This document shows positions 43,578 to 58,274 of a DNA stretch of 64,000 nt, in pieces (positions within the stretch are counted from its first letter, which is position 1; each line of letters opens with the position of its first letter). The position numbers and the translations under genes are program-made. The notes under the pieces are model-generated. The model did not search any database and was not told where the DNA came from. It worked only from the letters and a program-made list of their open reading frames with translations. The stretch comes from Minisyncoccota bacterium (GTDB lineage: Bacteria; Patescibacteriota; Minisyncoccia; Phycocordibacterales; UBA918), in contig CALJTT010000004.1 in the NCBI GenBank assembly GCA_937975855.1, forward strand, positions 5,583-69,582. Reading direction: 5' to 3'.

Positions 43578-44014
43578 ACCAAACGCCGCAGAGTGCCAGT
43601 AACCACACCCCATACGTGAACATCATCAGCGTCACCAATGGGAATCGGTGCGTAACCTTCTTTGGCTGAAACCAGCTTACTCTGTGATGAAGTTTTATAT
43701 AACTGCTTAACGACAAGTTCACCGTAGACTGCCGCCACAACTATGGACAGATGTTCCGCTGGAACTGAACGATCTACTACCAAAACATCTCCGTCAAAGA
43801 TTCGCTTTCCTTCCATAGAGTCACCGCTGACACGCACAAAGAAAGTCGCAGTCTCGTTATCGATCATTAGATCATTTAAATTCAAAGGTCTTTCAACCAC
43901 ATCGTCGCCAGGAGTTGGAAAGCCAGCCGCTGGCTGTACGTCGTACAAAGGGGCTTCCACACCATCCACCTCCGCCTTGTTTACCTTTGTGACATTCGAG
44001 TCAGTTACTTTCAT
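43574..44014 (-). CDS. umuD: UmuD-like S24 LexA-family self-cleaving peptidase subunit
   Basis: MKVTDSNVTK... with an A-G cleavage site context (QPAAGFP), the catalytic Ser motif (VSGDSMEG) and a Lys (VVKQLYK). ~146 aa, so UmuD-sized rather than LexA. ATGA overlap with umuC. Confidence 0.7.
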   Translation of the reverse strand: MKVTDSNVTKVNKAEVDGVEAPLYDVQPAAGFPTPGDDVVERPLNLNDLMIDNETATFFVRVSGDSMEGKRIFDGDVLVVDRSVPAEHLSIVVAAVYGELVVKQLYKTSSQSKLVSAKEGYAPIPIGDADDVHVWGVVTGTLRRLV

Positions 44015-44043
44015 TCTTATGAGTATATATGAGTATATAAAAA

Positions 44044-44058
44044 CTGCACTTTGTGCAG
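44044..44058 (-). promoter_or_regulatory. Perfect palindrome CTGCAC-N3-GTGCAG ~30 nt upstream of umuD start. Candidate SOS/LexA-type operator overlapping the promoter. Adjacent tandem direct repeat GAGTATATAT x2 (44021..44040) gives a duplicated TATA-like -10.
   Basis: Read directly: ctgcactttgtgcag. Lies between umuD ATG (44014) and the upstream gene end (44082). Confidence 0.4.
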
Positions 44059-44081
44059 CATCAACACCCACGTAAATTTGA

Positions 44082-45239
44082 CTAGATCACTATTGCCCCG
44101 CTGGTCAAAGTTGTGTGTACAAACCACAGTCCCCCAACCCCGGCCAGCAACGCCAGACTGTAGGCTGCCTGGACATAGTGTAGTCGTCTCACTTCACCAA
44201 CCAACGCTGCGCACAACAGTAGTAAGATCACACCAATAAGGCCAGAGTAGACAACATCCAGCACCAGATTAGGCCTGGTTGCAACTGAAGCTATTGTTGC
44301 TCCAGGGTAACGCTCTTCTATTTTAATTTCCTCGGTGAACATAGCTACCGCTAGTCCCGACGAAGTTGCCAGCTGTGACTGAATGACCAGCACGTCATTA
44401 GCTGGCTTAGGGCGGGCTGGCTCTGTGGCTGGTGGGGCTGGTTCAACAACAGGAAGTTCTGGTTTTATTGTGTCTTCTGCAGACAAAACTACTGTCTCTG
44501 GGGCTGGTTCATTTGCTGGCAGCGTTGGCGTAGATTGCTCTAATTGAACAACTGCCTGTTGCAGTCCTTCCAGCTGAGTCCGAAGTAGTGCTAATTCATC
44601 AGGTGAGGCAGGTGACTGTCCTTGTTGTTGTGGGGCATCTATCGCAGTTGGCAATATTGTCGGCTGAGGTTCTTGCACATTGTCAGCGAGCGCACCAACT
44701 GCAGGCGTACCAAACAGCTGCACAACAAACACTGTGTCATATCCGTCAAATTTTCCCTTGGCAGTTCCAACACCGATCTCTGTGTAATTAGCGTTTACAA
44801 TGTTCTCTTTATGGGCCGGTGAGTCCATCCAAGCGCCGACCAACTCGGCCGAGTCAGTAAAATGGATCGCCAAGTTTTCGCCTGCATGAGCATATTGATA
44901 GCCAACTCCTTCAAAAAAATACCAAGGGGAAGTCCCATCTGGAGCAAAATGCGCAAAGTAGCCTTGTTTTACCATATGTTCAGCCTTTGCTTGGGCGGCG
45001 GCGTCGAGACTAGAATTACGCCGTAAAGGTGCGGCAGCATAACCACCTCGCTCACTATTAGTGAGATCCACCACCACAGCCGGCAAAACTGTACCGACCA
45101 GCCAATCTGAGGATTGCCACAAAAGAGCCTGGATGTTCGTACCGACAAAAGTCAGCACGACAAGCGCCGCCATCAGCGTCACTGCAGCCTTTTCTAACCT
45201 ATCAAGGCTGTGACTATAATCTGGTTCAAACCACTGCAT
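44082..45239 (-). CDS. Membrane-anchored CAP/SCP/PR-1-like (YkwD-type) domain protein with Pro-rich linker and C-terminal TM
   Basis: N-terminal TM (VTLMAALVVLTFVGTNIQALLW). CAP-like core ...AQAKAEHMVKQGYFAH.APDGTSPW......GENLA......ELVGAWMDSPAHKENIVNANYTEIGVG. C-terminal hydrophobic helix. Confidence 0.55.
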   Translation of the reverse strand: MQWFEPDYSHSLDRLEKAAVTLMAALVVLTFVGTNIQALLWQSSDWLVGTVLPAVVVDLTNSERGGYAAAPLRRNSSLDAAAQAKAEHMVKQGYFAHFAPDGTSPWYFFEGVGYQYAHAGENLAIHFTDSAELVGAWMDSPAHKENIVNANYTEIGVGTAKGKFDGYDTVFVVQLFGTPAVGALADNVQEPQPTILPTAIDAPQQQGQSPASPDELALLRTQLEGLQQAVVQLEQSTPTLPANEPAPETVVLSAEDTIKPELPVVEPAPPATEPARPKPANDVLVIQSQLATSSGLAVAMFTEEIKIEERYPGATIASVATRPNLVLDVVYSGLIGVILLLLCAALVGEVRRLHYVQAAYSLALLAGVGGLWFVHTTLTSGAIVI

Positions 45240-45264
45240 ATTGTTGCTATACTAGCACTATTGT

Positions 45265-46638
<1,374 letters not shown>

Positions 46639-46694
46639 TACAAACAAAAACAGCCAGTGACCTTTTGGCCACTGGCTGTTTTTGTTATTTATAG

Positions 46695-49600
46695 TTAGTT
46701 CGCAACTAGCTGTGCGTTGTCAATTTCTAGGAATCCGACTGCTGCTAGGTTGTTGAAGATTGTTACAGTTACAACATCTTCGGGAGTAATAAAGATGTAC
46801 GATGTTTCGTTCCATCCGGCAGATACAGCCAATTGTCCAAGAGTGTCGTAGACAAAGCTTCCATCGTTCATTGTGTATCGCACCACTACGTCAGCCGCCA
46901 CATCGTTTTGGTGTCCGATTGTGAAAGTGTAGCTCGTGCTAGCTGTCACGTTAACGTCTCCAAAGTACCATTTAGCATCACCGCTAGTGTAGTCAGTAAA
47001 CTCAACTCGGGCAGCGTCAGATCCGTCAGGACCGGCTACTGGGTAAGTGAAGACTGCGTCATTGACTCCCCATCCGCCCTGGAGCCAGTTTGTTGGGTTG
47101 TTGGCAGAGCCGGCTTCAAGGTCGCCGTTGACAATCAGGTTCCCTCCCGTTGGTGGAGTAGTTGTACCATTGTCAACTATCAGAGTAATCTCGGTACTTT
47201 GTCCGATATTTCCAGCTTCGTCTTCTGCTTCCACTATTAGTTGGTGTGGACCATTTGTCAGTTCTGTTGTGTCGAGCACAAAGTCATAAGGCGCCACTCC
47301 GTCCGTGTCAGTCACCGCACCGTTCACTAGTAGTCTAGTTTGATCTACTCCGACATTATCAGTCACAGTCGCGTCGATATTCAGTACGCCGCCACGTGTC
47401 TCACCATCTGATAGATTTGTAAGAGTCACAACTGGCGCTTGTGTGTCGTTCGACGTTGTCGTTGTGCCTGTTGTCCCAGTCAGTACCCAATTGTCGATTT
47501 CTAGGAATCCAACTGCTGTCAGGTTGTGGAAGATTGTTACAGATTCTGTGTTTGTCGGCGTTGTGAAAGTACCATTGTTTGTAGTCCACGCAGCTGCAGG
47601 AGCGAGAGAATCTAGGAATCCATACTGGAATGTACCGTCAGTCATTGTGTACTGTGCAACTACTTCGGTTGCCACATCTGACCGGTACTGGTGAGAATAG
47701 CTGTACGCGTCTCCACTGACAACCGCAACTGGCGCAAAGTACCACTTCGCATCACCACTGTTGTAAGCTGTCATTTCGATTCGAGCAACGTCACCACCTT
47801 GTCCGTCAACTGGATAGATGAAGTTTGCAGTATTATCTCCCCATCCGCCCTGGAACCAACCATTTGGCGTTCCGACACCTGCTTCAATGTCGCCGTTGAC
47901 AATCAAGTTGTCGCCAGTTGGAGGGTCGACTGGATCAGTAGTTGTTCCAGTATCGTTCTCAACCACTATTGTCAGCTGATCGGCAGCAGCGTTTGCATTG
48001 GCTGATGCGTCGATAGCTTCAGCTCGCAGTGTATATGTGCCGTTTGCCAGTGAAGTCACATCCACTGCAAATGCATAAGGTGCAGTTGTGTCGGTGTAGA
48101 AAAGCGAAGTTCCAACAATACTAAGAGTTGTTTCTGTGATACCGCTTGCGTCCTCGGCGTCTAGTCGCACTTCAAACGCACCTGACAAGGTTTGTCCATT
48201 TCCGATGTTGGCAATCGCAACATCAGGAGCAACATTGTCGTCATCCACTGGAGTTCCTGCGTCACCAACCAGACTCACATTGTCGATCTCTAGGAAACCA
48301 ACTGCTGCCAGGTTGTGGAAGATTGTTGCCGCAGTAGCGTTTGCTGGTGCAGTAAACTGGAATGTGTTTTCTGTCCATGTTGCTACAGGTGCTTTACTGT
48401 CGATGAATTCGTATTGGAATGTTCCATCAGTCAGAGTGTAAGCAACGACTGTTTCGGTCGTAACGTCAGAACGATAGAAGTTTGTGAACTCGTACACTTC
48501 GTTTGGCGTGATTGCCACTGGAGCAAAGAACCACTTTCCGTCTCCGCTTGTGTATGAAATCATTTCTACTCGCGCTGCGTCTCCGTTTTGTCCTGCAACT
48601 GGATACGTGAATACACGATCGTTAGTTCCCCATCCTCCTTGTGCCCAGTTTGTTGGGTTGTTAGCAGAGCCTGCTTCCAGGTCGCCGTTAGCGATTAGAT
48701 TATCGCCAGTTGGAGGGTCCACAGGATCACCAGTCACTTGTACTAGCGACACGTTGTCGATGTAGCCATAAGAAGGCTGAGTAACATCTACCACTAATGG
48801 TGTGTGGAAGACTGTTACTGTCGCTGCGTTTTCTACTGCTACAAAATCTACTTCGTAACTAGTTAGGTCATTAGGACTATTCGTGTCGTAGGCCGGAGAA
48901 TATCCAAGCAACTCAGCTTGAGTTGTGCCATCAGCCAATGTGTAGAATGCTACAACCTCGTTACTGTTTTTGCTTGAGTAATCAACGCTAAATCGATATG
49001 TCTCGCCAGCAGTTACAGCCACGTCGTCGAATACCCATTTTGCATCGCCCGAAGTGTAGTTAAAGATTTCTACGTAGCCAACATTGTTGCCGGTAGTATC
49101 TTGGAAGACATTGTAGTTGTTGTCGTTGATACCGTAACCACCTTCTCGCCATCCTACTGGATCGCCAGCTGCGTCGAGCACTTCGAATCCGCCGTTATTT
49201 ACCAAGTTATCACCTGGTACAACAACTTGGTTGTCGATCACAATCGAAATTTCTACTGCATCGTTGTTTCCAAATGGATCGTATGAAGTTGCTTTTAGTA
49301 CGTTAGTACCGTTCACAAAGTCAGTTGTGTCAACCACTACTTCGTATGGTGCCGTTGCGTCTTCTACGCCAATTGCATTTCCGTTAAGTGCGAAGAACAC
49401 ACCAACCACTTCAGTTTCGTCGGTAGCAGTCGCTTCAAAAGTTACTGTCCCCGAAACTGTTTCGCCGTCTGTGTGACTCACGATGTTTACTACTGGAGGA
49501 TTTGTTTCTGACTGGTTTCCAGTTGAAGATGCCGTAATAACCACGTCATCGATAGTCAATGTTCCCACTGCACTAATAAGGTGGAATGGTGTCATCGTCA

Positions 49601-52600
49601 CTGCGTTTTCTGGTGCAATGAATGATCCTTCTTCTAATGTCCAGTCTGTTGCTTGTAGAATTTCTTTCCCAATTCCTTGGTAGAAGAATGAGCCGTCAGT
49701 CATTGTGTACTGTGCGATCACGTCTGAAATTGTGTCTGACTTGTAGTACGTACTGAAATTGTACTCAGTTCCCGGTGTCACCGGAATCGGTGTGTGTGCC
49801 CACTTTGAGTCACCACTGTCTGTTACTTCGTATTCGGTAATTACTACCTGCGCAGCATTTCCGCCATTTCGTCCTGGTACTGGGAAGACGTGGTTTCGGG
49901 TGTGAGTTCCCCATCCGCTTGGAGTCCAGTTTTGCGGTGTACCGTCACCGTTTACAAGCTCGAAGTCTCCGTTAAATACTAGATTCGGTTCAGGTTCGAC
50001 TACAATTTCTTTCAAAGAAAGAGAGTACTCGTCAACCTTTACTGTTCCGTTTTGAGCCAAGTCGTGGAAGACTGTCATACTCTGCATACCCTCTGGTACA
50101 ACAATGTCGTAGTTTGTAGTTGTCGGGTCCGCTGCTGGCGGCAATAGGCCTAAACTCTGGTATAGGTACGAACCATCTGGGCGAGCATACTGAATAGTCA
50201 GCTCAGTGTTTACATTAGCTGTATAGAGGTGGCTGAACTCGTAAGTGTTACCTGGCACCACAAACACTGGCGCAAAGTACCATCGAGCAGCACCGGCGCT
50301 GTAGTCGGCCACAGTAAGTTCTGCTGCAGTGTTGCCGCTTAGTCCAATAACTGGATAAGTAAACGTCGGCGTCATACTTCCAAACCAACCAGGAATCCAG
50401 TTCAAGGGCTGAGAAGGAATTATTGGGTCACCAATTTCCATTGAAGGGTTATTGATCAGGTTGCCAGTTCCCCCACCATTGTTTAGGTACATGTTGATAC
50501 TAGTTGTATCAGTCAGGCCGTTCGCGTCGGTGACAGTAAGTTCGATTTCCATGTAAACGTCACTATCGTTATGGTCGTCTGCTACAAAAGTAATTTGTTT
50601 AGTGTCAGAAAACTGCTGCACTGTGTGAGTGTGCACGTTGTGATGCAGGATTACAGTCCAGTCAAACGCACTGGCTGGCAAATTACCGTCCTCAGGATCA
50701 ATAGCGTCACCATTAACAGTAACGTTCTCAAGTGGGAAATACAGAGATCCGCTAGTAGGACTAATGATAGAAGCTGCTGGCTTTTGGTTACCAACTGTAA
50801 CGTCGATACTTTCTGACGCAGATGCGCCAAAACTATCTGTTACTGTAAGGGCTGCAGTGTAAACACCGTTAACGTTGTATGTGTGAGTCGGGTTAGCAAT
50901 ATTTGCCGTTACGCCATCGTCAAAATCCCAAAGGAAATCAACCGCGTCGGCGTCAGGGTCAAATGTGCCAGTACTGTCAAACTGAACAGTCAACGGAGAC
51001 AGACCAGACGTAACATCAGCTGAAGCAGAAACGACCGGTCGTCGATTACCATCAGTGTGAGTTAGTCGGTTAAGTGAACCAAAAGCGATATCAATATAAT
51101 GAACATTACCATCTGCACCAGTGTTGAACTCAACTGGGAAAACAAAGTCGCTCTGGAAGTCTTCAACTGAAGCAACGCTTCCGTCAGCATTTAGAACCAT
51201 TCGCTTGATCCATTGCTGAGCATAGTCACCAATAAACAAACTGCTGTCATACTGGTCTGGATATGCGTCATTAGTACCAAACGATCCGACAATAATAGAT
51301 CCAGCGCCCGAAGCGTTATGCGGATAGTCATAAATGGGGTCGGTGTCAGCTGTCGGATTTGTACAGTTGTAAGGAGAATTATTTGCTCCTTCGCGACATG
51401 GCCATCCGTAGTTGTTACCAGGGTTGATTTCGTTTACTTCTTCCCAGTCACTCCATCCTACGTCTCCACCATAAAGTCGACCTGTTGTTTCGTTGAAGCT
51501 CAGTCGGAACATGTTACGGAATCCGTACGCGTAGACCTTTGAACGGTTTGAGTTTACGTCACCGTCAAAGAAAGGGTTGTCAGTTGGAGCTGTTCCGTCA
51601 GTATTAATTCGAAGCACCTTACCTGCTAGCGAGTCGATATCTTGAGCACGAAAAGCTCGTGGGTCGATCGCTGCAAAGTCAGCGCCGTCTCCAAGAGAAG
51701 CGTATAGCTTTCCATCAGGTCCAAATTTTAGTGCACCAACACTATGACTGTTAGAGTCAGACGCAATACAGTCAGCTGTTACGGCAAAGTCTTCACAAGA
51801 CATGTTGGTTGCATCGCCGCCAACAGTACCAACTAGTACAAATTTACTAGATTCACTAGCAACATCTCCTATCACTGTGACTCTTACAATACGACCAGTT
51901 TTTGGCCCAGAAGGATTTAGACCAGGAGTGTTTTCATAAGAGTACGAAAGATACAAATATCCGTTACTGGAGAAGTTTGGATCAAGCGTCATTCCAATCA
52001 AACCACGGTCACCAAAAGTGTTGATGTCGGTCAACGTGATAACCGGCGTCGGAAGAACCGCGCCGTTTTTTACCACCTTAACTACTCCGTTCTTTTCAGC
52101 AACAAAGATTCGTCCGTCGGCTGCAAAAGCAGTCGCTGTAGGTAGAGAAAATCCACCAGCGATTACTTCACTTTCAAAACCTGGCTCGACGATCTGTGCA
52201 CCTGCAACAGCTGGGATAGCGAGCAGAGTTCCACCCAACACAACAACCATCAGAAGACGTGATACTCCGATAAAGGCAAGTAACGCTGCAGTAGTGCCGC
52301 TTACATACTGTATAGCAGGAGCGAAGAGTCGTGACTTCAACGGATTGTACAGAACAAACGTGATCAGAGCAGCCAAACCAACGCCAACTGGCACAAAGAA
52401 TGTTTCGTTAAAGACTACACTGGACATCGCTGTAAAAAATAGTCCAACTGCCCACTTTAGAGCAATGATCTGTGGCTCGTCAGCTCCGTACTGGAAGCCA
52501 AGGTAGACAGAAAATCCAAATACCGTAAACACGTAGGTCGCCAACACAATAACAATTGCGTAAGAAGCGATCGTGTTCATAATTTTACTTTTGAACCAAC

Positions 52601-52727
52601 CGCCGTGCTTGCCGTGTGTTTGGAAAGCTGAAAGATGTGCGTTGCCTTTAAGTTTGTTCGACAATGCCGCCAGCCCAATAACTGTGAGGTGGAACAACAG
52701 TGAGAATCCAAGAAATGAAAGAAACAT
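46695..52727 (-). CDS. 2010-aa polytopic membrane protein: N-terminal multi-TM region, PQQ-type glucose/sorbosone dehydrogenase (GSDH)-like beta-propeller, PKD domain, ~8 CBM4/9-like ~190-aa repeats interleaved with bacterial Ig-like domains
   Basis: TM helices within the first ~170 aa. GSDH-like GFSLPTATAFAADGRIFVAEKNGVVKVV ... YAYGFRNMFRLSF..GRLYGGDVGWSDWEEVNEI.PGNNYGWP. PKD LTVQFDSTGTFDPDADAVDFLWDFDDGV...NPTHTYNVNGVYTAALTVTDSFG (~50780-51040). Repeated NGD(L/F)E.G....P..W.QGGWG.N...F.YPV.G..GD.ARVE...Y.SGD.KW.FAPV......Y.F...Y.SDV..E.V..YT..DGT..Y.....AVGFLEIDN. Confidence 0.75.
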   Translation of the reverse strand: MFLSFLGFSLLFHLTVIGLAALSNKLKGNAHLSAFQTHGKHGGWFKSKIMNTIASYAIVIVLATYVFTVFGFSVYLGFQYGADEPQIIALKWAVGLFFTAMSSVVFNETFFVPVGVGLAALITFVLYNPLKSRLFAPAIQYVSGTTAALLAFIGVSRLLMVVVLGGTLLAIPAVAGAQIVEPGFESEVIAGGFSLPTATAFAADGRIFVAEKNGVVKVVKNGAVLPTPVITLTDINTFGDRGLIGMTLDPNFSSNGYLYLSYSYENTPGLNPSGPKTGRIVRVTVIGDVASESSKFVLVGTVGGDATNMSCEDFAVTADCIASDSNSHSVGALKFGPDGKLYASLGDGADFAAIDPRAFRAQDIDSLAGKVLRINTDGTAPTDNPFFDGDVNSNRSKVYAYGFRNMFRLSFNETTGRLYGGDVGWSDWEEVNEINPGNNYGWPCREGANNSPYNCTNPTADTDPIYDYPHNASGAGSIIVGSFGTNDAYPDQYDSSLFIGDYAQQWIKRMVLNADGSVASVEDFQSDFVFPVEFNTGADGNVHYIDIAFGSLNRLTHTDGNRRPVVSASADVTSGLSPLTVQFDSTGTFDPDADAVDFLWDFDDGVTANIANPTHTYNVNGVYTAALTVTDSFGASASESIDVTVGNQKPAASIISPTSGSLYFPLENVTVNGDAIDPEDGNLPASAFDWTVILHHNVHTHTVQQFSDTKQITFVADDHNDSDVYMEIELTVTDANGLTDTTSINMYLNNGGGTGNLINNPSMEIGDPIIPSQPLNWIPGWFGSMTPTFTYPVIGLSGNTAAELTVADYSAGAARWYFAPVFVVPGNTYEFSHLYTANVNTELTIQYARPDGSYLYQSLGLLPPAADPTTTNYDIVVPEGMQSMTVFHDLAQNGTVKVDEYSLSLKEIVVEPEPNLVFNGDFELVNGDGTPQNWTPSGWGTHTRNHVFPVPGRNGGNAAQVVITEYEVTDSGDSKWAHTPIPVTPGTEYNFSTYYKSDTISDVIAQYTMTDGSFFYQGIGKEILQATDWTLEEGSFIAPENAVTMTPFHLISAVGTLTIDDVVITASSTGNQSETNPPVVNIVSHTDGETVSGTVTFEATATDETEVVGVFFALNGNAIGVEDATAPYEVVVDTTDFVNGTNVLKATSYDPFGNNDAVEISIVIDNQVVVPGDNLVNNGGFEVLDAAGDPVGWREGGYGINDNNYNVFQDTTGNNVGYVEIFNYTSGDAKWVFDDVAVTAGETYRFSVDYSSKNSNEVVAFYTLADGTTQAELLGYSPAYDTNSPNDLTSYEVDFVAVENAATVTVFHTPLVVDVTQPSYGYIDNVSLVQVTGDPVDPPTGDNLIANGDLEAGSANNPTNWAQGGWGTNDRVFTYPVAGQNGDAARVEMISYTSGDGKWFFAPVAITPNEVYEFTNFYRSDVTTETVVAYTLTDGTFQYEFIDSKAPVATWTENTFQFTAPANATAATIFHNLAAVGFLEIDNVSLVGDAGTPVDDDNVAPDVAIANIGNGQTLSGAFEVRLDAEDASGITETTLSIVGTSLFYTDTTAPYAFAVDVTSLANGTYTLRAEAIDASANANAAADQLTIVVENDTGTTTDPVDPPTGDNLIVNGDIEAGVGTPNGWFQGGWGDNTANFIYPVDGQGGDVARIEMTAYNSGDAKWYFAPVAVVSGDAYSYSHQYRSDVATEVVAQYTMTDGTFQYGFLDSLAPAAAWTTNNGTFTTPTNTESVTIFHNLTAVGFLEIDNWVLTGTTGTTTTSNDTQAPVVTLTNLSDGETRGGVLNIDATVTDNVGVDQTRLLVNGAVTDTDGVAPYDFVLDTTELTNGPHQLIVEAEDEAGNIGQSTEITLIVDNGTTTPPTGGNLIVNGDLEAGSANNPTNWLQGGWGVNDAVFTYPVAGPDGSDAARVEFTDYTSGDAKWYFGDVNVTASTSYTFTIGHQNDVAADVVVRYTMNDGSFVYDTLGQLAVSAGWNETSYIFITPEDVVTVTIFNNLAAVGFLEIDNAQLVAN
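46700..50500 (-). repeat. Intragenic tandem repeats of ~780 nt (CBM-like units). The three 3'-most copies (~46721, ~47497, ~48283) are ~85% identical at the DNA level.
   Basis: Near-identical strings tcgatttctaggaatccaactgctg.caggttgtggaagattgtta at 46721, 47497 and 48283. A second conserved block ccctggagccagtttgttgggttg...gtcgccgttgacaatca recurs at ~47080, ~47860 and ~48640. Confidence 0.8.
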
Positions 52728-52729
52728 AT

Positions 52730-53764
52730 TTAGGTTGTTACAGACTTATTAATAAACCGTTCAGGTTTGAACCACGTCAGGTTCTTACGTCGAAGGAAAA
52801 CTTCAATCACCATTTGTTCTAGGAAAATGTATGAATTGATTACTGCGATGAAAAGATATGGTATCGGCACCAAAATCAACTCCCAACGTTTTTCTCTCCA
52901 CGCAGCGTAGATCGCTAGAATAAAAGCAACTGGAAGATAAGTCAAAAGGAAGTACAAGAAGACCTTCAGGCTCAAGATCGGCAGAATAAATACCATCAGA
53001 GCGAACACTAGACCTTCTGTGTAAAGGATCGTAAGCACAAGACTACTCTTTGGCAAACGACCAGCAAGGCTATGGTGCTTCATGAGACACTGCCATCCAC
53101 CAGCAAGCCATCGGCGCATCTGGTTGATGTAAGAGTGAAGTGTAGCTGGATCCTGGGTGTACACGATCATACGACGGTCATACTGGATCTTTAGATCAAG
53201 TGTGTGCAGTCGGTAAGTAAAATCAAGATCCTCAGTCAAAGTATCGTGTTCAAATGGAATGTAGTTTCGAAAATCTTCAGTTTTGAACACCGCCGCAGCG
53301 CCAGGAATCACAAACAAGAATCCTAGGTGATGTTGCGATAGCTTGTGTAGGTTTTGCCCCACACTGTACTCAAAAGCACGACACGCTGTGATCCAGTTGT
53401 GACGCATGCTGCGCACGTAACCACTAACCGCTGATAGCTCAGGGTCTTTGTTTACGTTTTCCTCAAGATACATAAGGAAATCCTTGTCGAGGACTGTGTC
53501 ACCGTCAGTTGCCACAAAGTAGTCTGAGGTAACGAACTTTAGACCAATTTCTTGGGCGAAGCTTTTGTTCCCAGTTGCCTTAGGCATCGTCAGAACTGTG
53601 ATCTGATCACCGAACTCACGAAGAAGCTCGCCACTACGGTCATTACTACCATCATTAACAATGATGATTTGATCAGCAGGGCGTGTTTGAGCCAAGCATG
53701 AACGAACGCAGTCGGCGATACCAACTTCTTCGTTATAGCATGGGATTAAAATTGAGATTGTCAT
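52730..53764 (-). CDS. Processive family-2 glycosyltransferase (polysaccharide synthase; IcaA/PgaC/NodC/cellulose-synthase-like) with C-terminal TM helices
   Basis: ISILIPCYNEE, DGSNDRS, DGD (DxD), TED and the processive-GT2 signature QMRRW (QxxRW). 3 C-terminal TM segments. Stop is 2 nt from the start of the 2010-aa gene. Confidence 0.7.
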   Translation of the reverse strand: MTISILIPCYNEEVGIADCVRSCLAQTRPADQIIIVNDGSNDRSGELLREFGDQITVLTMPKATGNKSFAQEIGLKFVTSDYFVATDGDTVLDKDFLMYLEENVNKDPELSAVSGYVRSMRHNWITACRAFEYSVGQNLHKLSQHHLGFLFVIPGAAAVFKTEDFRNYIPFEHDTLTEDLDFTYRLHTLDLKIQYDRRMIVYTQDPATLHSYINQMRRWLAGGWQCLMKHHSLAGRLPKSSLVLTILYTEGLVFALMVFILPILSLKVFLYFLLTYLPVAFILAIYAAWREKRWELILVPIPYLFIAVINSYIFLEQMVIEVFLRRKNLTWFKPERFINKSVTT

Positions 53765-53982
53765 ACTTTTTATAATAATTTATTTTCCGAAGCTACTCTC
53801 CTTCACGTAACAAAATGCCCGCCAAAGTGCCGGCGAACTACTCTTTGCTACACAGAGGAGAACAGCTCTACGTCCCAATATATATACTATATAACCACTT
53901 TTGTCAAGGGCTAGAGGTATTATTGTATCGGCTTACTGGAAACCTCTTTATGAGACGTAAAATAACCTTTATTTGTCACCAA

Positions 53983-54612
53983 CTATTCGACCTTTAACTT
54001 AGCAAAAACAACGCGATTGTGCGAATAGCGACTAGTGTCAGAATCGTACCATCCAGAGCAAGTTACGAGGCGTAAACCTGCGTGATCGATGTCGCCATAT
54101 ACTAAACTAGTCGGGAAAGAAGATTGCTCGTATTTCTCGCTGCCAGTTACTTTAAACGTGGCTTCAGAGCCGTCCGACAGGCCTATAACGATGTCGTCAC
54201 CCTTATCTAACTGTCCTAGAGCGTAAAACACTGCGGGTCCGTCCAGGGAGTCCACATGGCCCAAAATCACGGCCGGCCCTAGTTCCCCTGGTACAGGACT
54301 GTGCTTATACCAACCAACTGTCTCATATTCAGCAGGAACCTCCACCTCTTGATTAGATTGCAACCCAAGCGGATTCGTAAAATCAGCCGTCAGACCCAAG
54401 TCTGGGATGCGCAAGGTTGTGGGCAGCAACTCGTCACCAGGCTGAGATACATTATGTTCAGTTTGAACCTGCACCCGATCAGTTGGAGTATGTGACAAAA
54501 CAGCAGATGGAGCGTTTTCGCCAATAGCTATCACCAATGCCACACAAGCCAAAAAAACGCCCAAGGGGGCGTATTTTTTGTAAACGTCAATTAGATTAAG
54601 ACGATTAGACAT
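53983..54612 (-). CDS. Sortase-family transpeptidase (membrane-anchored)
   Basis: N-terminal TM (LGVFLACVALVIAI). Catalytic-triad-like context AVILGHVDS (His), LRLVTCSGW (TLxTC Cys), SRYSHNRVVF (Arg). Overlaps the upstream substrate gene by 8 nt. Confidence 0.6.
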   Translation of the reverse strand: MSNRLNLIDVYKKYAPLGVFLACVALVIAIGENAPSAVLSHTPTDRVQVQTEHNVSQPGDELLPTTLRIPDLGLTADFTNPLGLQSNQEVEVPAEYETVGWYKHSPVPGELGPAVILGHVDSLDGPAVFYALGQLDKGDDIVIGLSDGSEATFKVTGSEKYEQSSFPTSLVYGDIDHAGLRLVTCSGWYDSDTSRYSHNRVVFAKLKVE

Positions 54613-56608
54613 TGACCTTTAGTCGACGAGCACCTAGCACTGCTGCTACAGCAGCTACAAGCATCGCAAACGTCCCAGCTGCTGGAATAGTTGGTGCTGT
54701 GCTACCAGCACCTGCATTTACTCCACCAAATGGTACAGCTGATACTTGTTCTCCAAGCACCATTCCTTGTGGGGCTGAAGCTGAAGAATCTGAGATACCA
54801 GCAACTGTTGGCTGCGCAGTACCAGTACTTAGTCCATCACGGGCACCAACTCGTGTTCCTGAAGATGAGCTTCCGCCGTTACCGTTGTCATCATTGTTAG
54901 CAGATGAACCTCCACCGCTTCCGCCGTTAGATCCACCTGAACCACCGTTTGAAGTAGTTGTTCCATTACCTGAACCGTCTCCTGTTGCAGTCATTGTGTT
55001 GTAGAAGTCAACGCTATATTCAGCATCGTTGATAACAAATCCGTTTGCTTCTCCTACCATTACTTGAGCATCAGTGTCAGACACTGAAAGTTGTGCTTCA
55101 GTAGCTGCAGCTCCGTCTCGCATTGCTGATACGAATTCCCAGCCTGTTTGCATTGATTCTGCTACACGGTACTCGAAAGTGTAAGCATCAGTTGGCTGTA
55201 CGTAAGCTGGTGTCCACTCTGTTCCATCTGTCCAACGTAGGCAGTAGTATCCGCCTGCGTCTGTAGTGTCAGTGTCGATCACGTATGTAAGTACTGTTCC
55301 GTCAGTGTTTGTAATAACCTTACGTAGACTCATATCCCAACCTGAAAGTGGATTTCCGTCAGCGTCATATTTGTAACCTTGGTATTCGCAACCTTCTTCT
55401 GGACTCGCTACTGCTGTGTCCGAACCTCCACCTGTTGTTGAGTCAGTTGTTGTGCCTGATCCATCTTCAGTTGTAGTTCCATTGTCTGTATCTGTCCCGT
55501 CAGGAGTTGTAGTTCCTGTGTCTGTACCGTCGTCACTTGATGATGCAGTGTTATCAGTCGAGGTTGCTGAGTTGTCAGTTGAAGTAGCTGAGTTGTCTGT
55601 GGTAGTTGAATTATCAGTTGTTCCGTCATCAGAAGATGATGCAGAATTGTCAGTTGAAGTTGCAGAGTCTACTGTTGAAGTAGCTGAGTCGTCTGTGGTA
55701 GTTGCCGTCTCGTCTGTTGATGTTGCTGTGTCTTCAGTTGAAGTAGCAGTTTCATCTACCACAACAACGTCGCTAACAGTTACCGTTAGGTCTACTGGAG
55801 CGCCAACAACCGCCCCACCAGTCTCTTCAAGCAAAGTGACAGTTAGTGTGTACTCGCCAGCAACATCGTTGCTGTAGCAAATTCCCTTTTCTGCACCGAT
55901 AACAAACTCGTTGTCAGCGTCTACAACAGGGTTGTTACAAGCACCACCAATTGTGCCGTTGTAGAAAGATCCTGCAGCGCCATTGTCAGAAACAGTTACA
56001 ACTGTTGTTGAGCCGTCAAAACCGTCTTCTGCAGTCACCCCAGCGACAAAGTTAACCAACGCGCCAGTGTCTACTGTAAGAGTCTGTGGTGTTGCGCTTA
56101 GTGTCGCAGTTGGCGGCACTGTTACTACGTCGCTTCCGTCGTCGTATGTTGCAGTAGCGTTAACTACAACACCTGGTTCTGCGTCGAAGTTTCCTGTAGC
56201 AACAACCTCAGCGCCTGCTGCGGTGTTCAATGTGATGCTTTCAGTAGTGTTTCCTAGTGACTCAGCTCCCCAGTCTTCGTCACATCCGAGTCCACCGTTT
56301 AGTGCTTCGTCGTCGTTACGACAAACTGTAAAAGTGTCTCCATCAGCCAAAACTGCAGAGCCGATAACATGGATTCTTCCAGCGTTATCTAGGATCTCCC
56401 AGCCTGTGATGTCAACTTGTTCTGTACCATCATATGAAATAGATACATATTCACCCACTTCCTCTGACAATGGGTCAGGGTCTGCAACTACTGCCAGGGT
56501 AAATGTTCCAGCCGCCGCGTGAAGCGGTTGCATAGGTAACAATACTGCTAAGAGCGATAGGGTTGTGAGCACTGCCCATACGCGTGCAAAAGAAATTCGC
56601 TGAGTCAT
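54605..56608 (-). CDS. Secreted Thr/Ser/Asp-repeat surface protein with C-terminal cell-wall-sorting-like signal (hydrophobic helix plus RRLKVNV tail). Putative sortase substrate.
   Basis: Signal (VLTTLSLLAVLLPMQPLHAAAG). Long A-T-S-T-D-N/E hexapeptide-like repeats (nt ~55430-55760). Gly/Ser/Asn-rich segment. C-terminus ...STAPTIPAAGTFAMLVAAVAAVLGARRLKVNV. Confidence 0.6.
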   Translation of the reverse strand: MTQRISFARVWAVLTTLSLLAVLLPMQPLHAAAGTFTLAVVADPDPLSEEVGEYVSISYDGTEQVDITGWEILDNAGRIHVIGSAVLADGDTFTVCRNDDEALNGGLGCDEDWGAESLGNTTESITLNTAAGAEVVATGNFDAEPGVVVNATATYDDGSDVVTVPPTATLSATPQTLTVDTGALVNFVAGVTAEDGFDGSTTVVTVSDNGAAGSFYNGTIGGACNNPVVDADNEFVIGAEKGICYSNDVAGEYTLTVTLLEETGGAVVGAPVDLTVTVSDVVVVDETATSTEDTATSTDETATTTDDSATSTVDSATSTDNSASSSDDGTTDNSTTTDNSATSTDNSATSTDNTASSSDDGTDTGTTTPDGTDTDNGTTTEDGSGTTTDSTTGGGSDTAVASPEEGCEYQGYKYDADGNPLSGWDMSLRKVITNTDGTVLTYVIDTDTTDAGGYYCLRWTDGTEWTPAYVQPTDAYTFEYRVAESMQTGWEFVSAMRDGAAATEAQLSVSDTDAQVMVGEANGFVINDAEYSVDFYNTMTATGDGSGNGTTTSNGGSGGSNGGSGGGSSANNDDNGNGGSSSSGTRVGARDGLSTGTAQPTVAGISDSSASAPQGMVLGEQVSAVPFGGVNAGAGSTAPTIPAAGTFAMLVAAVAAVLGARRLKVNV

Positions 56609-56742: not shown

Positions 56743-57690
56743 CTACGGATGCAACTGTTCATGCACTCTGCGCACTGCTGCCAGGCCGTGGCACGGACTG
56801 GTTGACGCGATAACTTCTTGCGCACTACTTACCTCCCTTTCAATAGCAATTCGCCTCGCTTCTGCGTCTTCGTGATGTTTGTACATACGGTCAACAAAAA
56901 TTTGCCTCTCTTCACTTATTTGAGCCATTTTTGTTGGTTGGTCAAACATCCACGGGAACACTCCACATCCGTGAAAACTTTTACTTGAAGAGGAAGTTCG
57001 TTGGCCGAGCAATCTAACCTGTAGACCTTTAGATAGAAAGCCCAGGTCTTGTTCAGACAAGTCTGTTGATACGATTTGCCATTGTGCTCCATCAATGTCA
57101 GTAAATTGTATACGGATTGGCGATGTGCTCGCGACACGCACTTGCCTTCCTATGAGACGTCCCTCGTTCGGGTTTTGCCACATCTTGCGTTCCATAGCTG
57201 CCTGCGATGCATACATTGGCGCCACTTGGCCTAACCAGTTGTCCAAAGTCCAGCCAAATCCACCCACATGAAATAGTCCACCCAGGACCAGGCTGAATAC
57301 AAAACTGGACCCGGCCAGAACCGATACAGACTGACGATAGCCGCGCCTGGTGTTGCGCAACTGCCAAACAGCTAGCAACAGCATCCCACCAAAGACCACG
57401 AACCACACGTATGGCAAGGCTTCTAATATAAAAGTGTAGAAATTTTCGTGTGTTGCTTCATAAATATCATAATACCGGTGTGTCGACACAAAGGTCACAA
57501 CCGCAACCGCCAGTCCTCCGAACAAGACCGACAAAGCCCACAATCCCCAAACCAGCCAGTTTAGACACAGGAAATAGTATTTTGAGCGAGGCTGCACATT
57601 AGACTCATCCAGCGCAGCAAAGACGCGATCCTTGACCGAATCTTCAAAATGTTCTGATTGTTGATCTTGTTGTGTCATATCTGGTTTCAT
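56743..57690 (-). CDS. Polytopic membrane protein; putative anti-sigma factor cognate to the upstream ECF sigma
   Basis: Immediately follows the ECF sigma gene (3-nt spacing). Multiple TM helices (LNWLVWGLWALSVLFGGLAVAVVTFV; VWFVVFGGMLLLAVW; FVFSLVLGGLFHVGGFGW), a cytoplasmic N-terminus, and a C-terminal soluble domain. No recognisable anti-sigma motif, so the call is contextual. Confidence 0.35.
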   Translation of the reverse strand: MKPDMTQQDQQSEHFEDSVKDRVFAALDESNVQPRSKYYFLCLNWLVWGLWALSVLFGGLAVAVVTFVSTHRYYDIYEATHENFYTFILEALPYVWFVVFGGMLLLAVWQLRNTRRGYRQSVSVLAGSSFVFSLVLGGLFHVGGFGWTLDNWLGQVAPMYASQAAMERKMWQNPNEGRLIGRQVRVASTSPIRIQFTDIDGAQWQIVSTDLSEQDLGFLSKGLQVRLLGQRTSSSSKSFHGCGVFPWMFDQPTKMAQISEERQIFVDRMYKHHEDAEARRIAIEREVSSAQEVIASTSPCHGLAAVRRVHEQLHP

Positions 57691-57692
57691 AA

Positions 57693-58274
57693 CTATGTAC
57701 GTATTTCGTCACTATTTATGGCACTTGCTAATTGTTTCTTGCCTCGGTGGATGAGTGTACCGACCGAGCCGATGGGAATTTTTAAAATATCGGATATTTC
57801 TTCGTACTCTTTGTGCTCAAAAAATCGCAACAAAAGAACCTCGCAATATTTCTTATCAAGCGACAACAATGCTGTATTCACAACACCAGCATTTAGCTGT
57901 TCGTCAAACTGCACATCGGCCCCCTCGGTCGAAGACGCCAAAAACCCAATGATTTCCTCACTATCGCCGACCAAGTGACCTTCGGGCCGAACGTTCTTTT
58001 TGCGGTACCAGCTAATGGCTTCGTTGTGGGCAATCCGATAAATCCACGACGAAAACTTTAACTTTGGGTCAAAGCCGTTGAGATTTCGGTAGACCTTGAG
58101 GAAAACTTCTTGCAGCACGTCCAGCTGGTCATCAGGATTGTGAACACCTAGTCGGGCGATGTACCGACCGAGTTTTGCTTCATAGCGCTCCATCAACAAG
58201 CCGAATCTTTCTTTGTCGATCAGGGTTTGCCTAACGAGTTCCTCGTCTGTTACTTGTGGTGCATCGTCAATCAC
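57693..58274 (-). CDS. ECF-type sigma-70 family RNA polymerase sigma factor
   Basis: Region 2 DVLQEVFLKVYRNLNGFDPKLKFSSWIYRIAHNEAISWYRKK. Region 4 HTH EYEEISDILKIPIGSVGTLIHRGKKQL. Confidence 0.75.
   Translation of the reverse strand: MIDDAPQVTDEELVRQTLIDKERFGLLMERYEAKLGRYIARLGVHNPDDQLDVLQEVFLKVYRNLNGFDPKLKFSSWIYRIAHNEAISWYRKKNVRPEGHLVGDSEEIIGFLASSTEGADVQFDEQLNAGVVNTALLSLDKKYCEVLLLRFFEHKEYEEISDILKIPIGSVGTLIHRGKKQLASAINSDEIRT

What the first reader, a model, noticed from the sequence alone, without database searches (positions are those of the whole stretch)
53983..56608. Overlapping sortase-substrate gene pair with a non-canonical sorting motif
A 667-aa S/T/D-repeat protein ends with a hydrophobic helix and an RRLKVNV tail (classic sorting-signal topology). 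It overlaps by 8 nt a sortase-like gene (TLxTC-type LVTC Cys, upstream His and downstream Arg). The pentapeptide preceding the helix is not LPXTG; candidates are TIPAAG or VPFGG. This suggests a lineage-specific sortase class and motif.
Basis: partly seen in the sequence, partly recalled or inferred. Interest (0 to 1): 0.55.

Follow-up and report, generated by a model that had tools for sequence, protein, structure and literature searches.

The report
Class F sortase with its non-LPXTG substrate
An uncultivated ultra-small (Patescibacteria/CPR) bacterium encodes a surface protein and, overlapping it by 8 nt, the class F sortase that most likely processes it through a conserved glycine-rich signal instead of LPXTG; this signal is catalogued in one curated protein database but has never been tested experimentally.

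Summary
A 667-aa secreted protein (54605..56608, minus strand) overlaps by 8 nt a 209-aa gene (53983..54612, minus strand) with a sortase fold and invariant His119 and Cys185.

The enzyme is not a new class. It is a class F sortase, best NCBIfam match by more than 130 bits, from a clade made up only of Patescibacteria.

Comparison with 80 related loci locates the sorting signal. In 24 of about 26 CPR loci that have upstream DNA, the gene just before the sortase ends in VLGEQVSxVPxG[AG]xx[TA]GxGG[TS], a short spacer, a hydrophobic segment and a basic tail. In the window this block is VLGEQVSAVPFGGVNAGAGST (residues 617-637).

TIPAAG lies in the variable spacer and is rejected.

The core block is a divergent form of NCBIfam NF058571, the "GVDTG sorting domain". 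Actinobacterial neighbours of class F sortases pass that model's cut-off; the CPR tails do not (16.3 vs 29 bits).

I found no paper that describes the motif. A 2026 study of Actinoplanes set aside such neighbours as having no pentapeptide motif.

Verdict: a real, dedicated sortase-substrate pair and a CPR variant of a catalogued but untested system. The cleavage site and the acceptor are inferred. Interest is moderate.

The parts
54605..56608 (-). Substrate gene: 667-aa secreted surface protein precursor.
   Evidence: ORF. The start is supported by ortholog P0134, which has the same MTQRIS start.
56516..56608 (-). Signal peptide, residues 1-31. Cleavage after LHA is inferred from the AxA rule.
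   Evidence: The sequence is. AF2 predicts a helix at residues 7-23. The cleavage site is an inference.
56204..56482 (-). Lamin-tail-domain-like beta-sandwich, residues 43-135.
   Evidence: Pfam LTD scores 29 bits, E 1.4e-6, below the gathering score of 34.3. AF2 predicts strands here.
55772..56107 (-). Ig-like beta-sandwich domain, residues 168-279.
   Evidence: AF2 pLDDT is about 90. The domain is shared with the substrates of L006, L012 and L013 and with P0135, P0136 and P0138. Foldseek returns only generic Ig and S-layer hits.
55403..55759 (-). Disordered Ser/Thr/Asp-rich stalk with 21-nt (7-aa) tandem repeats, residues 284-402.
   Evidence: TRF finds arrays at 55550..55597 and 55640..55749. 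AF2 pLDDT is below 50. One repeat unit is missing in the independent assembly L001.
54998..55402 (-). Second beta-rich domain, residues 403-537.
   Evidence: It is shared with the substrates of L006, L007 and L023-L025 and with P0137. The AF2 strands have low to moderate confidence.
54698..54760 (-). Conserved sorting block VLGEQVSAVPFGGVNAGAGST, residues 617-637. It combines the CPR-specific VLGEQVS box with the PxGG..(T/A)GxG(G/S)(T/S) core.
   Evidence: In alignment A2 the columns G619, P626, G628, G633 and G635 are invariant in 23 tails. The box occurs almost only in substrate tails.
54722..54736 (-). VPFGG, residues 625-629. This is the first candidate pentapeptide, with a possible scissile bond at G628|G629.
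   Evidence: Pro and Gly are invariant in alignment A2. In one search the tails were selected with a pattern that fixes these positions, so that listing is not independent evidence. Which bond is cut is not known.
54710..54724 (-). GVNAG, residues 629-633. It is the counterpart of the 'GVDTG' that names NF058571. This is the second candidate pentapeptide, with a possible scissile bond at A632|G633 by analogy with LPXT|G.
   Evidence: NF058571 aligns to tail residues 18-55. The fourth position is T in 16 and A in 10 of 26 CPR tails, and T in 37 of 44 actinobacterial tails.
54674..54691 (-). TIPAAG, residues 640-645.
   Evidence: It is not conserved in A2 or. It is kept only in ortholog P0134, as AIPAAG.
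54629..54673 (-). Hydrophobic helix TFAMLVAAVAAVLGA, residues 646-660.
   Evidence: The sequence is. AF2 predicts a helix at residues 646-661.
54608..54628 (-). Basic tail RRLKVNV, residues 661-667.
   Evidence: The sequence is. A basic tail is present in all related substrates.
53983..54612 (-). Class F sortase gene (209 aa). Its ATG overlaps the substrate stop by 8 nt.
   Evidence: Pfam Sortase E 1.1e-19. NF033748 class_F_sortase scores 159.5 bits, E 4.7e-47. Homologs are named class F sortase by NCBI. AF2 plus Foldseek return sortases for all listed matches.
54520..54573 (-). N-terminal membrane anchor of the sortase, residues 14-31 (YAPLGVFLACVALVIAIG).
   Evidence: The sequence is. AF2 predicts a helix at residues 7-32.
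53995..54435 (-). Sortase catalytic domain, residues 60-206. Key residues: His119 (54256..54258), Cys185 (54058..54060), Arg195 (54028..54030), Asn199 (54016..54018).
   Evidence: The NF033748 match covers residues 60-206. Conservation counts over 94 sequences are.
56743..57690 (-). 315-aa multi-pass membrane protein between the ECF sigma gene and the substrate gene. It is a possible anti-sigma factor; this is an inference.
   Evidence: It has no Pfam or NCBIfam match. Homologs sit in the same neighbourhood in 9 CPR loci.
57693..58274 (-). ECF-type sigma-70 factor at the head of the same-strand gene run.
   Evidence: It matches Sigma70_r2, Sigma70_r4_2 and TIGR02937. Homologs are found in 7 CPR loci.
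53817..53838 (-). Terminator-like hairpin between the sortase stop and the next gene (GT2).
   Evidence: This is a pattern match only. The region holds 10 such sites against 6.7 expected, so the evidence is weak.

Best explanation
This is a dedicated pair: a class F sortase and its substrate, in a Parcubacteria-type CPR bacterium.

Proposed mechanism:
1. The 667-aa precursor is exported by Sec through its signal peptide.
2. It is held in the membrane by its C-terminal helix and the RRLKVNV tail.
3. This places the conserved block VLGEQVSAVPFGGVNAGAGST just outside the membrane, next to the membrane-anchored sortase.
4. Cys185, assisted by His119, attacks a peptide bond inside the block. The bond is either A632|G633 in GVNAG (by analogy with LPXT|G) or G628|G629 in VPFGG.
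5. The acyl-enzyme is resolved by an amine of a peptidoglycan precursor. This leaves the LTD/Ig-like domains displayed on a Ser/Thr/Asp-rich stalk.

The two genes are translationally coupled and lie behind an ECF sigma factor gene.

Shown here: the fold and family of the enzyme, the conserved residues, the conserved tail, and its strict adjacency to the sortase in two phyla.

Inferred: cleavage itself, the exact bond cut, the acceptor molecule, and ECF control.
For: Enzyme:
- Pfam Sortase, and NF033748 class F at 159.5 bits over 148 of 155 profile positions.
- 2473 homologs, many named class F sortase in Patescibacteria.
- AF2 model with pLDDT 80.5; every one of the 50 listed Foldseek PDB matches is a sortase.
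- His119 and Cys185 are conserved in nearly all of 94 sequences, and Asn199 in 92 of 94.

Signal:
- The gene directly upstream of the sortase ends in the same block in about 24 of 26 CPR loci that have upstream DNA.
- An HMM built from these tails was run against 8816 six-frame ORFs. Every hit with E<0.01 is the C-terminal end of a same-strand ORF next to a sortase, and this includes actinobacterial tails that were not used to build the model.
- NF058571 GVDTG_CTERM is the only family matched repeatedly by the CPR tails: 13 of 23, best E 1.8e-7. Actinobacterial tails beside class F sortases pass its cut-off at 32-42 bits.

Modularity:
- Passenger proteins range from 187 to 1828 aa and carry different domains. 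Two carry 'choice-of-anchor C'.

Coupling:
- The gap from substrate stop to sortase ATG has a median of +2 nt. Nine of 23 loci overlap, and five have the same 8-nt overlap.

Architecture:
- Signal peptide, beta-sandwich domains, disordered stalk, then the sorting tail.
Against: - There is no experiment on any member of this group. The only characterised class F sortase, from P. acnes, uses LPXTG (PMC8225981). A quadruple srtF knockout in Actinoplanes showed no phenotype (PMC13251363).
- The window's tail scores 16.3 bits against a 29-bit cut-off for NF058571, and the sortase scores 159.5 against a 166-bit cut-off for NF033748.
- GVNAG lacks both the Pro and the Thr of LPXTG, so the scissile bond cannot be read from the sequence.
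- The canonical catalytic Arg is not conserved across the family.
- No peptidoglycan genes were seen in the window, so the presence of a wall rests on general knowledge of CPR genomes.
- I could not test whether the genome holds other substrates.
Confidence: 0.75

Rival explanations
1. The sortase processes the adjacent protein but does not attach it to peptidoglycan. It might release the protein, or join it to another acceptor such as a surface glycan, an S-layer component or another protein.
For: - 14 of 26 CPR relatives have tails with fewer than 15 consecutive uncharged residues, whereas all 13 actinobacterial tails have at least 18. This suggests a retention step unlike classical wall anchoring.
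- A GT2 polysaccharide-synthase-like gene follows the sortase in this window and in L007 and L023-L025.
- No phenotype or wall-linked product is known for any class F sortase of this type.
Against: - The window's own tail has a full-length helix and a basic tail, like classical wall-sorting signals.
- All characterised sortases resolve the acyl-enzyme with a wall-precursor or pilin amine (established knowledge; PMC8225981).
- The GT2 gene is absent from most related loci.
Confidence: 0.12
2. The C-terminal block is only a flexible Gly-rich linker before a plain membrane anchor. The sortase next door acts on other proteins elsewhere in the genome.
For: - The block is Gly/Ala-rich and predicted disordered.
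- GVNAG has neither Pro nor Thr.
- No cleavage data exist.
Against: - A linker would not keep five invariant positions and fixed spacing across passengers of 187-1828 aa with unrelated domains.
- It would not stay glued to a sortase gene, often overlapping it, in both Patescibacteria and Actinomycetota.
- No other protein in the 64-kb window has a sorting-type tail.
Confidence: 0.08
3. The pair is a pilus system. The sortase polymerises the 667-aa protein into a fibre, as class C sortases do.
For: - Sortase genes adjacent to their substrates are typical of pilus loci.
- The passenger has Ig-like domains.
Against: - There is a single substrate gene per CPR locus, with no second pilin or tip or base subunit.
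- The enzyme is class F and not class C by HMM.
- I did not see a YPK-type pilin motif when reading the sequence.
- Passenger domains differ between loci.
Confidence: 0.05

Closest known systems
NCBIfam NF058571 'GVDTG sorting domain' proteins next to class F sortases (NF033748) in Actinomycetota
   Same: - The core is the same: P-x-G-[GA]-x-x-[TA]-G-x-G-[GS]-[TS], then a spacer, a hydrophobic segment and a basic tail.
- The location is the same: the extreme C-terminus of a secreted protein encoded beside a class F sortase on the same strand.
- The CPR-tail HMM detects the actinobacterial tails, and NF058571 detects the CPR tails.
   Different: - CPR tails fall below the model's 29-bit cut-off: window 16.3, L007 25.5, P0137 19.3 bits.
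- They carry an extra VLGEQVS box directly upstream, outside the model.
- They often have Ala instead of Thr (10 of 26), and many have a short hydrophobic segment.
- The CPR sortases form their own clade and keep Arg195.
- I saw only the model's name. I could not read whether its curators link it to class F sortases.
Actinoplanes missouriensis SrtF1/AMIS_11010 and SrtF4/AMIS_36440 (PMC13251363)
   Same: These are class F sortase genes with an adjacent gene for a protein that has a signal peptide, a C-terminal membrane segment and a basic tail but no recognised pentapeptide. The authors suggested these proteins may be substrates, on genetic context alone.
   Different: The authors did not define a motif and did not analyse these genes further. 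The quadruple srtF mutant had no phenotype. I did not examine those sequences, so their having the GVDTG-type block is expected but not checked.
Propionibacterium (Cutibacterium) acnes SrtF, the only characterised class F sortase
   Same: It is assigned to the same sortase class in the literature.
   Different: It is a housekeeping enzyme that recognises LPXTG, like class A sortases (PMC8225981). Here the enzyme is paired with a single adjacent substrate that has no LPXTG.
Dedicated sortase-substrate pairs with variant motifs: class B SrtB/IsdC (NPQTN), class D (LPXTA), class E (LAXTG)
   Same: The logic is the same: a specialised sortase, a co-located substrate, and a variant of the pentapeptide followed by a helix and a basic tail (established knowledge; PMC8225981).
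   Different: The sortase class is different. The conserved block is much longer (about 20 residues in CPR), is glycine-rich, and lacks an obligatory Thr. Sequence similarity to those classes is low (25 bits or less).

Membership tests
Sortase superfamily (Pfam PF04203) | Sortase beta-barrel fold. | tested here: met
   Pfam scores 70.9 bits against a cut-off of 26.6. The AF2 model has pLDDT 80.5, and all 50 listed Foldseek PDB matches are sortases with E about 1e-8.
Sortase superfamily (Pfam PF04203) | Catalytic His and the Cys of a TLxTC-type motif. | tested here: met
   His119 (GHVDS) is conserved in 92 of 94 and Cys185 (LRLVTC) in all 94 CPR and actinobacterial sequences.
Sortase superfamily (Pfam PF04203) | Catalytic Arg downstream of the Cys. 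| tested here: inconclusive
   R195 aligns with the Arg of C. perfringens SrtD in a weak profile match. It is conserved only in the CPR clade (25/33) and is Ser/His/Thr in actinobacterial relatives. N199 and R181 are each conserved in 92 of 94 sequences.
Sortase superfamily (Pfam PF04203) | Transpeptidase activity on a C-terminal sorting signal. | not testable with these tools
   This needs an enzyme assay.
Class F sortase (NCBIfam NF033748) | Score at or above the curated cut-off of 166 bits. | tested here: inconclusive
   The score is 159.5 bits (E 4.7e-47) over profile positions 7-154 of 155, which is 6.5 bits short. The next-best class (E) scores 24.8 bits. Homologs with 45-62% identity are named class F sortase by NCBI.
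Class F sortase (NCBIfam NF033748) | A conserved Asn where other classes have the catalytic Arg, as stated in the literature. | tested here: met
   N199 is conserved in 92 of 94 sequences. The literature statement is in PMC8703055. The structural equivalence of the two positions was not verified.
Class F sortase (NCBIfam NF033748) | Groups with actinobacterial class F enzymes in a tree. | tested here: inconclusive
   In the NJ tree of 94 domains, the CPR clade (31 of 33 sequences) sits among actinobacterial relatives. No class A-E outgroups were available, and the tree is midpoint-rooted.
GVDTG C-terminal sorting domain (NCBIfam NF058571) | Score at or above the curated cut-off of 29 bits. | tested here: not met
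   The window's tail scores 16.3 bits, E 0.0088. The full-length protein gives no hit at E<=0.01. For this reason I call it a divergent relative and not a member by the curated rule.
GVDTG C-terminal sorting domain (NCBIfam NF058571) | The core motif PxGG(V/A)(D/N)TGxGG(T/S) at the extreme C-terminus, followed by a hydrophobic segment and a basic tail. | tested here: met
   The window has VPFGGVNAGAGST, a 9-aa spacer, a 15-aa helix and RRLKVNV. The only core departure is Thr to Ala, which 10 of 26 CPR tails share.
GVDTG C-terminal sorting domain (NCBIfam NF058571) | Encoded next to a class F sortase. | tested here: met
   The window has an 8-nt overlap. The same adjacency is seen in about 24 CPR loci and many actinobacterial loci. 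That this adjacency is part of the curators' definition is my assumption.
LPXTG cell-wall anchor (TIGR01167) | An LPXTG pentapeptide before the helix. | tested here: not met
   There is no LPXTG in the last 60 residues. TIGR01167 is not matched by the window's tail, and only 1 of 23 CPR tails matches it, at E 0.031.

The most novel reading that the evidence does not exclude
Parcubacteria-type CPR bacteria may use their own covalent surface-display pathway with four distinctive features:
- an extended signal of about 20 residues, VLGEQVSxVPxGAPN(T/A)GxGG;
- a separate, Arg195-bearing clade of class F sortases that reads it;
- a conserved envelope module around it (ECF sigma, multi-pass membrane protein, substrate, sortase, CAP-domain membrane protein);
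- in many members, a tail too short to span the membrane, which would imply a different substrate-retention step.

If so, this would be the first defined anchoring route for the variable surface proteins that these episymbionts may use to contact hosts. It would also give the orphan class F sortases of Actinomycetota their long-missing recognition motif.
Probability: 0.25. Interest if true: 0.65.

Novelty: new variant of a known kind. Interest (0 to 1): 0.45.

Why it matters
Class F is the least understood sortase class. In the literature I could search, its only characterised member uses LPXTG. The many class F genes of Streptomyces and Actinoplanes have no known substrates or phenotypes. As recently as 2026, their neighbouring genes were set aside for lacking a pentapeptide motif.

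The comparison made here defines a conserved, testable motif shared by two phyla. It shows that CPR bacteria carry a recognisable variant that current curated models miss, so the substrates are left as hypothetical proteins.

Sortases are reported in more than half of CPR genomes (PMC6744442). The passengers are diverse, large surface proteins, so the signal could be used to list the covalently displayed surface proteins of these uncultivated episymbionts.

The motif could also widen the toolbox for sortase-mediated ligation, if the enzyme proves active in vitro.

Tried and rejected
- **TIPAAG as the motif.** Rejected. It lies in the variable spacer and is kept only in the closest ortholog, P0134.
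- **LPXTG or LAXTG-type motif.** Absent.
- **A new sortase class.** Rejected in favour of class F.
- **Database-wide search with the tail profile A2.** Only 4 hits passed E<=0.001 in 5.8 billion sequences, because the signal is too short. This was uninformative.
- **Metagenome scan for the tail.** The second matched 600 or more patterns, but only one locus passed the tblastn confirmation, and it looks like the same contig as L003. This was uninformative, so the number of substrates per genome stays untested.
- **PDB sequence search with the sortase profile.** It gave only one weak hit, 4d70 SrtD, and no class F entry.
- **Full-length substrate.** It has only 7 homologs. The AF2 model has low confidence (pLDDT 54.7), and Foldseek gives only generic Ig and S-layer matches, so no specific passenger function can be assigned.
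- **Promoter and terminator scan.** Counts are close to chance, so I use them only as weak hints.
- **Literature search for 'GVDTG'.** It found only unrelated peptides.
- **The CPR Pam pilus preprint.** Checked and found unrelated to sortases.
Full report
**1. Observation.**
On the minus strand, a 667-aa ORF (54605..56608) and a 209-aa ORF (53983..54612) overlap by 8 nt. The sequence ATGTCTAA holds both the sortase start codon and the substrate stop codon, with an AAGG Shine-Dalgarno-like element just upstream.

The long protein starts with a signal peptide (MTQRISFARVWAVLTTLSLLAVLLPMQPLHA). It has a Ser/Thr/Asp-rich region built on 21-nt repeats. It ends ...VLGEQVSAVPFGGVNAGAGSTAPTIPAAGTFAMLVAAVAAVLGARRLKVNV. 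It is the only ORF in the 64-kb window with a hydrophobic-plus-basic C-terminal end.

**2. The enzyme.**
- Family: the 209-aa protein matches Pfam Sortase (E 1.1e-19) and NCBIfam NF033748 class_F_sortase (159.5 bits, E 4.7e-47, profile positions 7-154 of 155). This is 6.5 bits under the curated cut-off of 166. The next-best class (E) scores 24.8 bits.
- Relatives: a search of 5.8 billion proteins found 2473 relatives. The closest are from Patescibacteria (Kaiserbacteria, Paceibacteria/Pacebacteria, Parcubacteria), and several are named 'class F sortase' by NCBI.
- Structure: an AlphaFold2 model built on a 25-sequence alignment has mean pLDDT 80.5, with an N-terminal helix (residues 7-32) followed by a beta-barrel. 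All 50 listed Foldseek PDB matches are sortases of classes A, C, D and E, with E about 1e-8. No class F match appeared among these or in the PDB sequence search.
- Conserved residues, over 94 catalytic domains from CPR and actinobacterial loci:
  - His119 is conserved in 92 of 94 and Cys185 in all 94.
  - Asn199 and Arg181 are each conserved in 92 of 94.
- This pattern fits the published remark that class F sortases have a conserved Asn in place of the catalytic Arg (PMC8703055).
- In a neighbour-joining tree, 31 of 33 CPR enzymes form one clade with no actinobacterial members. Two Saccharimonadia enzymes group with an actinobacterial subclade.

**3. The signal.**
I fetched 80 loci that encode relatives of the sortase from a species-level genome collection. 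I then read the gene in front of each sortase.

In about 24 of 26 CPR loci that have upstream DNA, that gene ends with the same block. The consensus is P.P.VLGEQVS.VP.GAPNTGAGGTS, followed by 5-10 variable residues, a hydrophobic segment and a basic tail (alignment A2).

In the window's numbering, G619, P626, G628, G633 and G635 are invariant in all 23 aligned tails.

An HMM of these tails was run against all 8816 six-frame ORFs of the window and the loci (1.2 million residues). Every hit with E<0.01 is the C-terminal end of a same-strand ORF next to a sortase. This includes actinobacterial tails that were not used to build the model.

The VLGEQVS box is almost exclusive to these tails. A regex for it gave 29 matches, and 27 of them lie in substrate tails 33-53 residues from the C-terminus, at fixed spacing from the VP.

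The passenger parts are 187-1828 aa long and share domains only patchily. Two carry a 'choice-of-anchor C' domain. This is the behaviour of a modular sorting signal.

The substrate stop and the sortase ATG are a median of 2 nt apart. Nine of 23 pairs overlap, and five have the same 8-nt overlap as the window.

**4. Which residues matter.**
- TIPAAG (residues 640-645) lies in the variable spacer. It recurs only in the nearest ortholog, P0134, as AIPAAG.
- The full core shared by both phyla is P-x-G-[GA]-[APV]-x-[TA]-G-x-G-[GS]-[TS].
- Two pentapeptides within it resemble sortase sites:
  - [VM]PxG[GA] (window VPFGG);
  - the following G[APV]x[TA]G (window GVNAG; commonly APNTG in CPR and GADTG in Actinomycetota).
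- Sequence alone cannot say which bond is cut.

**5. What is known.**
NCBIfam release 20 contains NF058571, the 'GVDTG sorting domain-containing protein' model.
- The window's tail matches it at 16.3 bits (E 0.0088; cut-off 29) over tail residues 18-55. The match therefore starts at VP and excludes the VLGEQVS box.
- Thirteen of 23 CPR tails match it at E<=0.1 (best 1.8e-7). No other family recurs.
- Full CPR substrates stay under the cut-off (L007 25.5 bits, P0137 19.3 bits). Actinobacterial tails beside class F sortases pass at 32-42 bits.

The core motif is therefore already catalogued, and the CPR form is a divergent variant of it.

In the searchable literature I found nothing on this motif.
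- 'GVDTG' returns only unrelated peptides.
- Reviews state that class F was characterised only in P. acnes, with LPXTG specificity (PMC8225981).
- A 2026 mBio paper on Actinoplanes missouriensis found no phenotype for a quadruple srtF mutant. [quoted passage not shown]
- For CPR bacteria, sortases are reported in more than half of genomes (PMC6744442), without any motif.

**6. Substrate architecture.**
The AF2 model was built on only 7 sequences and has mean pLDDT 54.7, so it is used only for layout.

| Residues | Feature |
|---|---|
| 7-23 | signal helix |
| 33-156 | beta-sandwich; weak Pfam LTD match |
| 168-279 | Ig-like sandwich, pLDDT about 90 |
| 290-402 | disordered Ser/Thr/Asp stalk |
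| 409-537 | second beta-rich domain |
| 541-645 | disordered Gly/Ser region that includes the sorting block |
| 646-661 | helix |

Foldseek returns only generic Ig-like and S-layer matches. This is the layout of a stalked, wall-displayed surface protein. Its specific function is not identified.

**7. Context.**
The pair sits in a same-strand run: ECF sigma factor (57693..58274), a 315-aa multi-pass membrane protein (56743..57690), the substrate, then the sortase.

Homologs of the sigma factor and the membrane protein occupy the same neighbourhood in 7 and 9 CPR loci respectively.

In 13 CPR loci a CAP-domain membrane protein follows the sortase, in most of them directly. In the window its homolog lies 9 kb downstream (44082..45239). 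A block lies in between: a GT2 gene, a 2010-aa GSDH/PKD/CBM protein and a GH26 gene. The GT2 gene and the giant protein follow the sortase in the same way in L007 and L023-L025.

A terminator-like hairpin follows the sortase (53817..53838), but the scan as a whole is near chance.

**8. Mechanism and confidence.**
The best-supported reading (0.75) is a dedicated class F sortase that recognises the conserved block of its co-translated neighbour, cleaves within it, and transfers the protein to an envelope amine, most likely a peptidoglycan precursor.
- Shown: the fold and family of the enzyme, the conserved residues, the conserved modular tail, and adjacency and coupling in two phyla.
- Inferred: catalysis on this substrate, the scissile bond, the acceptor, and ECF control.

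Rivals:
- processing without wall attachment, or attachment to another acceptor (0.12);
- the tail is a mere linker plus membrane anchor (0.08);
- pilus polymerisation (0.05).

One fact about relatives remains unexplained. Fourteen of 26 CPR tails have fewer than 15 consecutive uncharged residues, against at least 18 in all 13 actinobacterial tails examined. The window's own tail is of normal length.

**9. Verdict.**
However, the enzyme class is known (class F), and the core motif is already catalogued as GVDTG-CTERM.

What is new here:
- the CPR-specific extended variant, which escapes the curated cut-offs;
- the cross-phylum comparison, which pins down the conserved positions.

Novelty: new variant of a known kind. 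Interest: 0.45.

Noticed in passing
window 55403..55759 compared with L001: An independent assembly of the same organism (L001, run ERR9287623, 99.8% identical over 11.9 kb) lacks exactly one 21-nt unit (TDNSATS) of the substrate's Ser/Thr/Asp repeat. This is either a copy-number polymorphism of the stalk or an assembly collapse.
   Followed up: partly
window 18511..35061 (-): A giant 5516-aa ORF with almost no recognisable domains. Only DUF2341 and a weak Ig-like match were found. It has no sortase-type tail.
   Followed up: partly
window 44082..53764: A block of three genes separates the sortase from a CAP-domain membrane protein (44082..45239): GT2 (52730..53764), a 2010-aa GSDH/PKD/CBM_4_9/Big_7 protein with an N-terminal multi-pass region (46695..52727), and GH26 (45265..46638, plus strand). 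In 13 other Parcubacteria-type loci the CAP gene lies downstream of the sortase, in most of them directly. The GT2 and giant-protein part of the block is shared with L007 and L023-L025.
   Followed up: partly
window 42321..45239 and 56743..58274; loci L003, L004, L009, L017, L018 and others: There is conserved synteny around the pair: ECF sigma, a 315-aa multi-pass membrane protein, substrate, sortase, CAP-domain protein, an S24 peptidase (UmuD/LexA-like), and further downstream a Y-family polymerase (IMS/UmuC). Whether the CAP protein or the 315-aa protein works with the sortase is unknown.
   Followed up: partly
loci L005, L009, L010, L013-L015, L017-L019, L023, L026: Many CPR substrate tails have only 4-13 consecutive uncharged residues before the basic tail, which is too short for a membrane-spanning helix. 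Actinobacterial tails have 18-23. How such substrates are held for the sortase is unexplained.
   Followed up: partly
L039 5017..6513; L079 4786..6594: The two Saccharimonadia sortases group with an actinobacterial subclade and not with the main CPR clade. Their substrate tails lack the VLGEQVS box (APKGGVHAGFGST, APTGGVGAGFGGAS). This would be compatible with gene exchange between Saccharibacteria and Actinomycetota, but the tree is unrooted NJ and this was not tested further.
   Followed up: no
window 54557..54572: A palindromic GC-rich hairpin followed by a T-run (ACGCCCCCTTGGGCGT TTTTTTGG on the minus strand) lies 40 nt inside the sortase ORF. It could lower sortase expression relative to the substrate, or it may simply reflect the coding sequence for YAPLGVFL.
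   Followed up: no
window 4549..5307, 35159..36697, 37283..39238: The window holds dockerin-domain proteins (4549..5307 and 37283..39238) and a cohesin-domain protein (35159..36697). This suggests a second, non-covalent surface-assembly system alongside the sortase pathway.
   Followed up: no
L030 5355..6552: A Doudnabacteria locus has two class F sortase genes in tandem and no recognisable substrate tail upstream. L011 also lacks the upstream substrate; the giant GSDH/PKD protein and GH26 sit there instead.
   Followed up: no
L005, L010, L013, L024/L025 substrate tails: Some tails carry a second, degenerate VLG(A/D/E) box about 12-15 residues upstream of the main VLGEQ box, for example GEVLGDSDDRPEGEVLGEQV. 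Its meaning is unknown.
   Followed up: no
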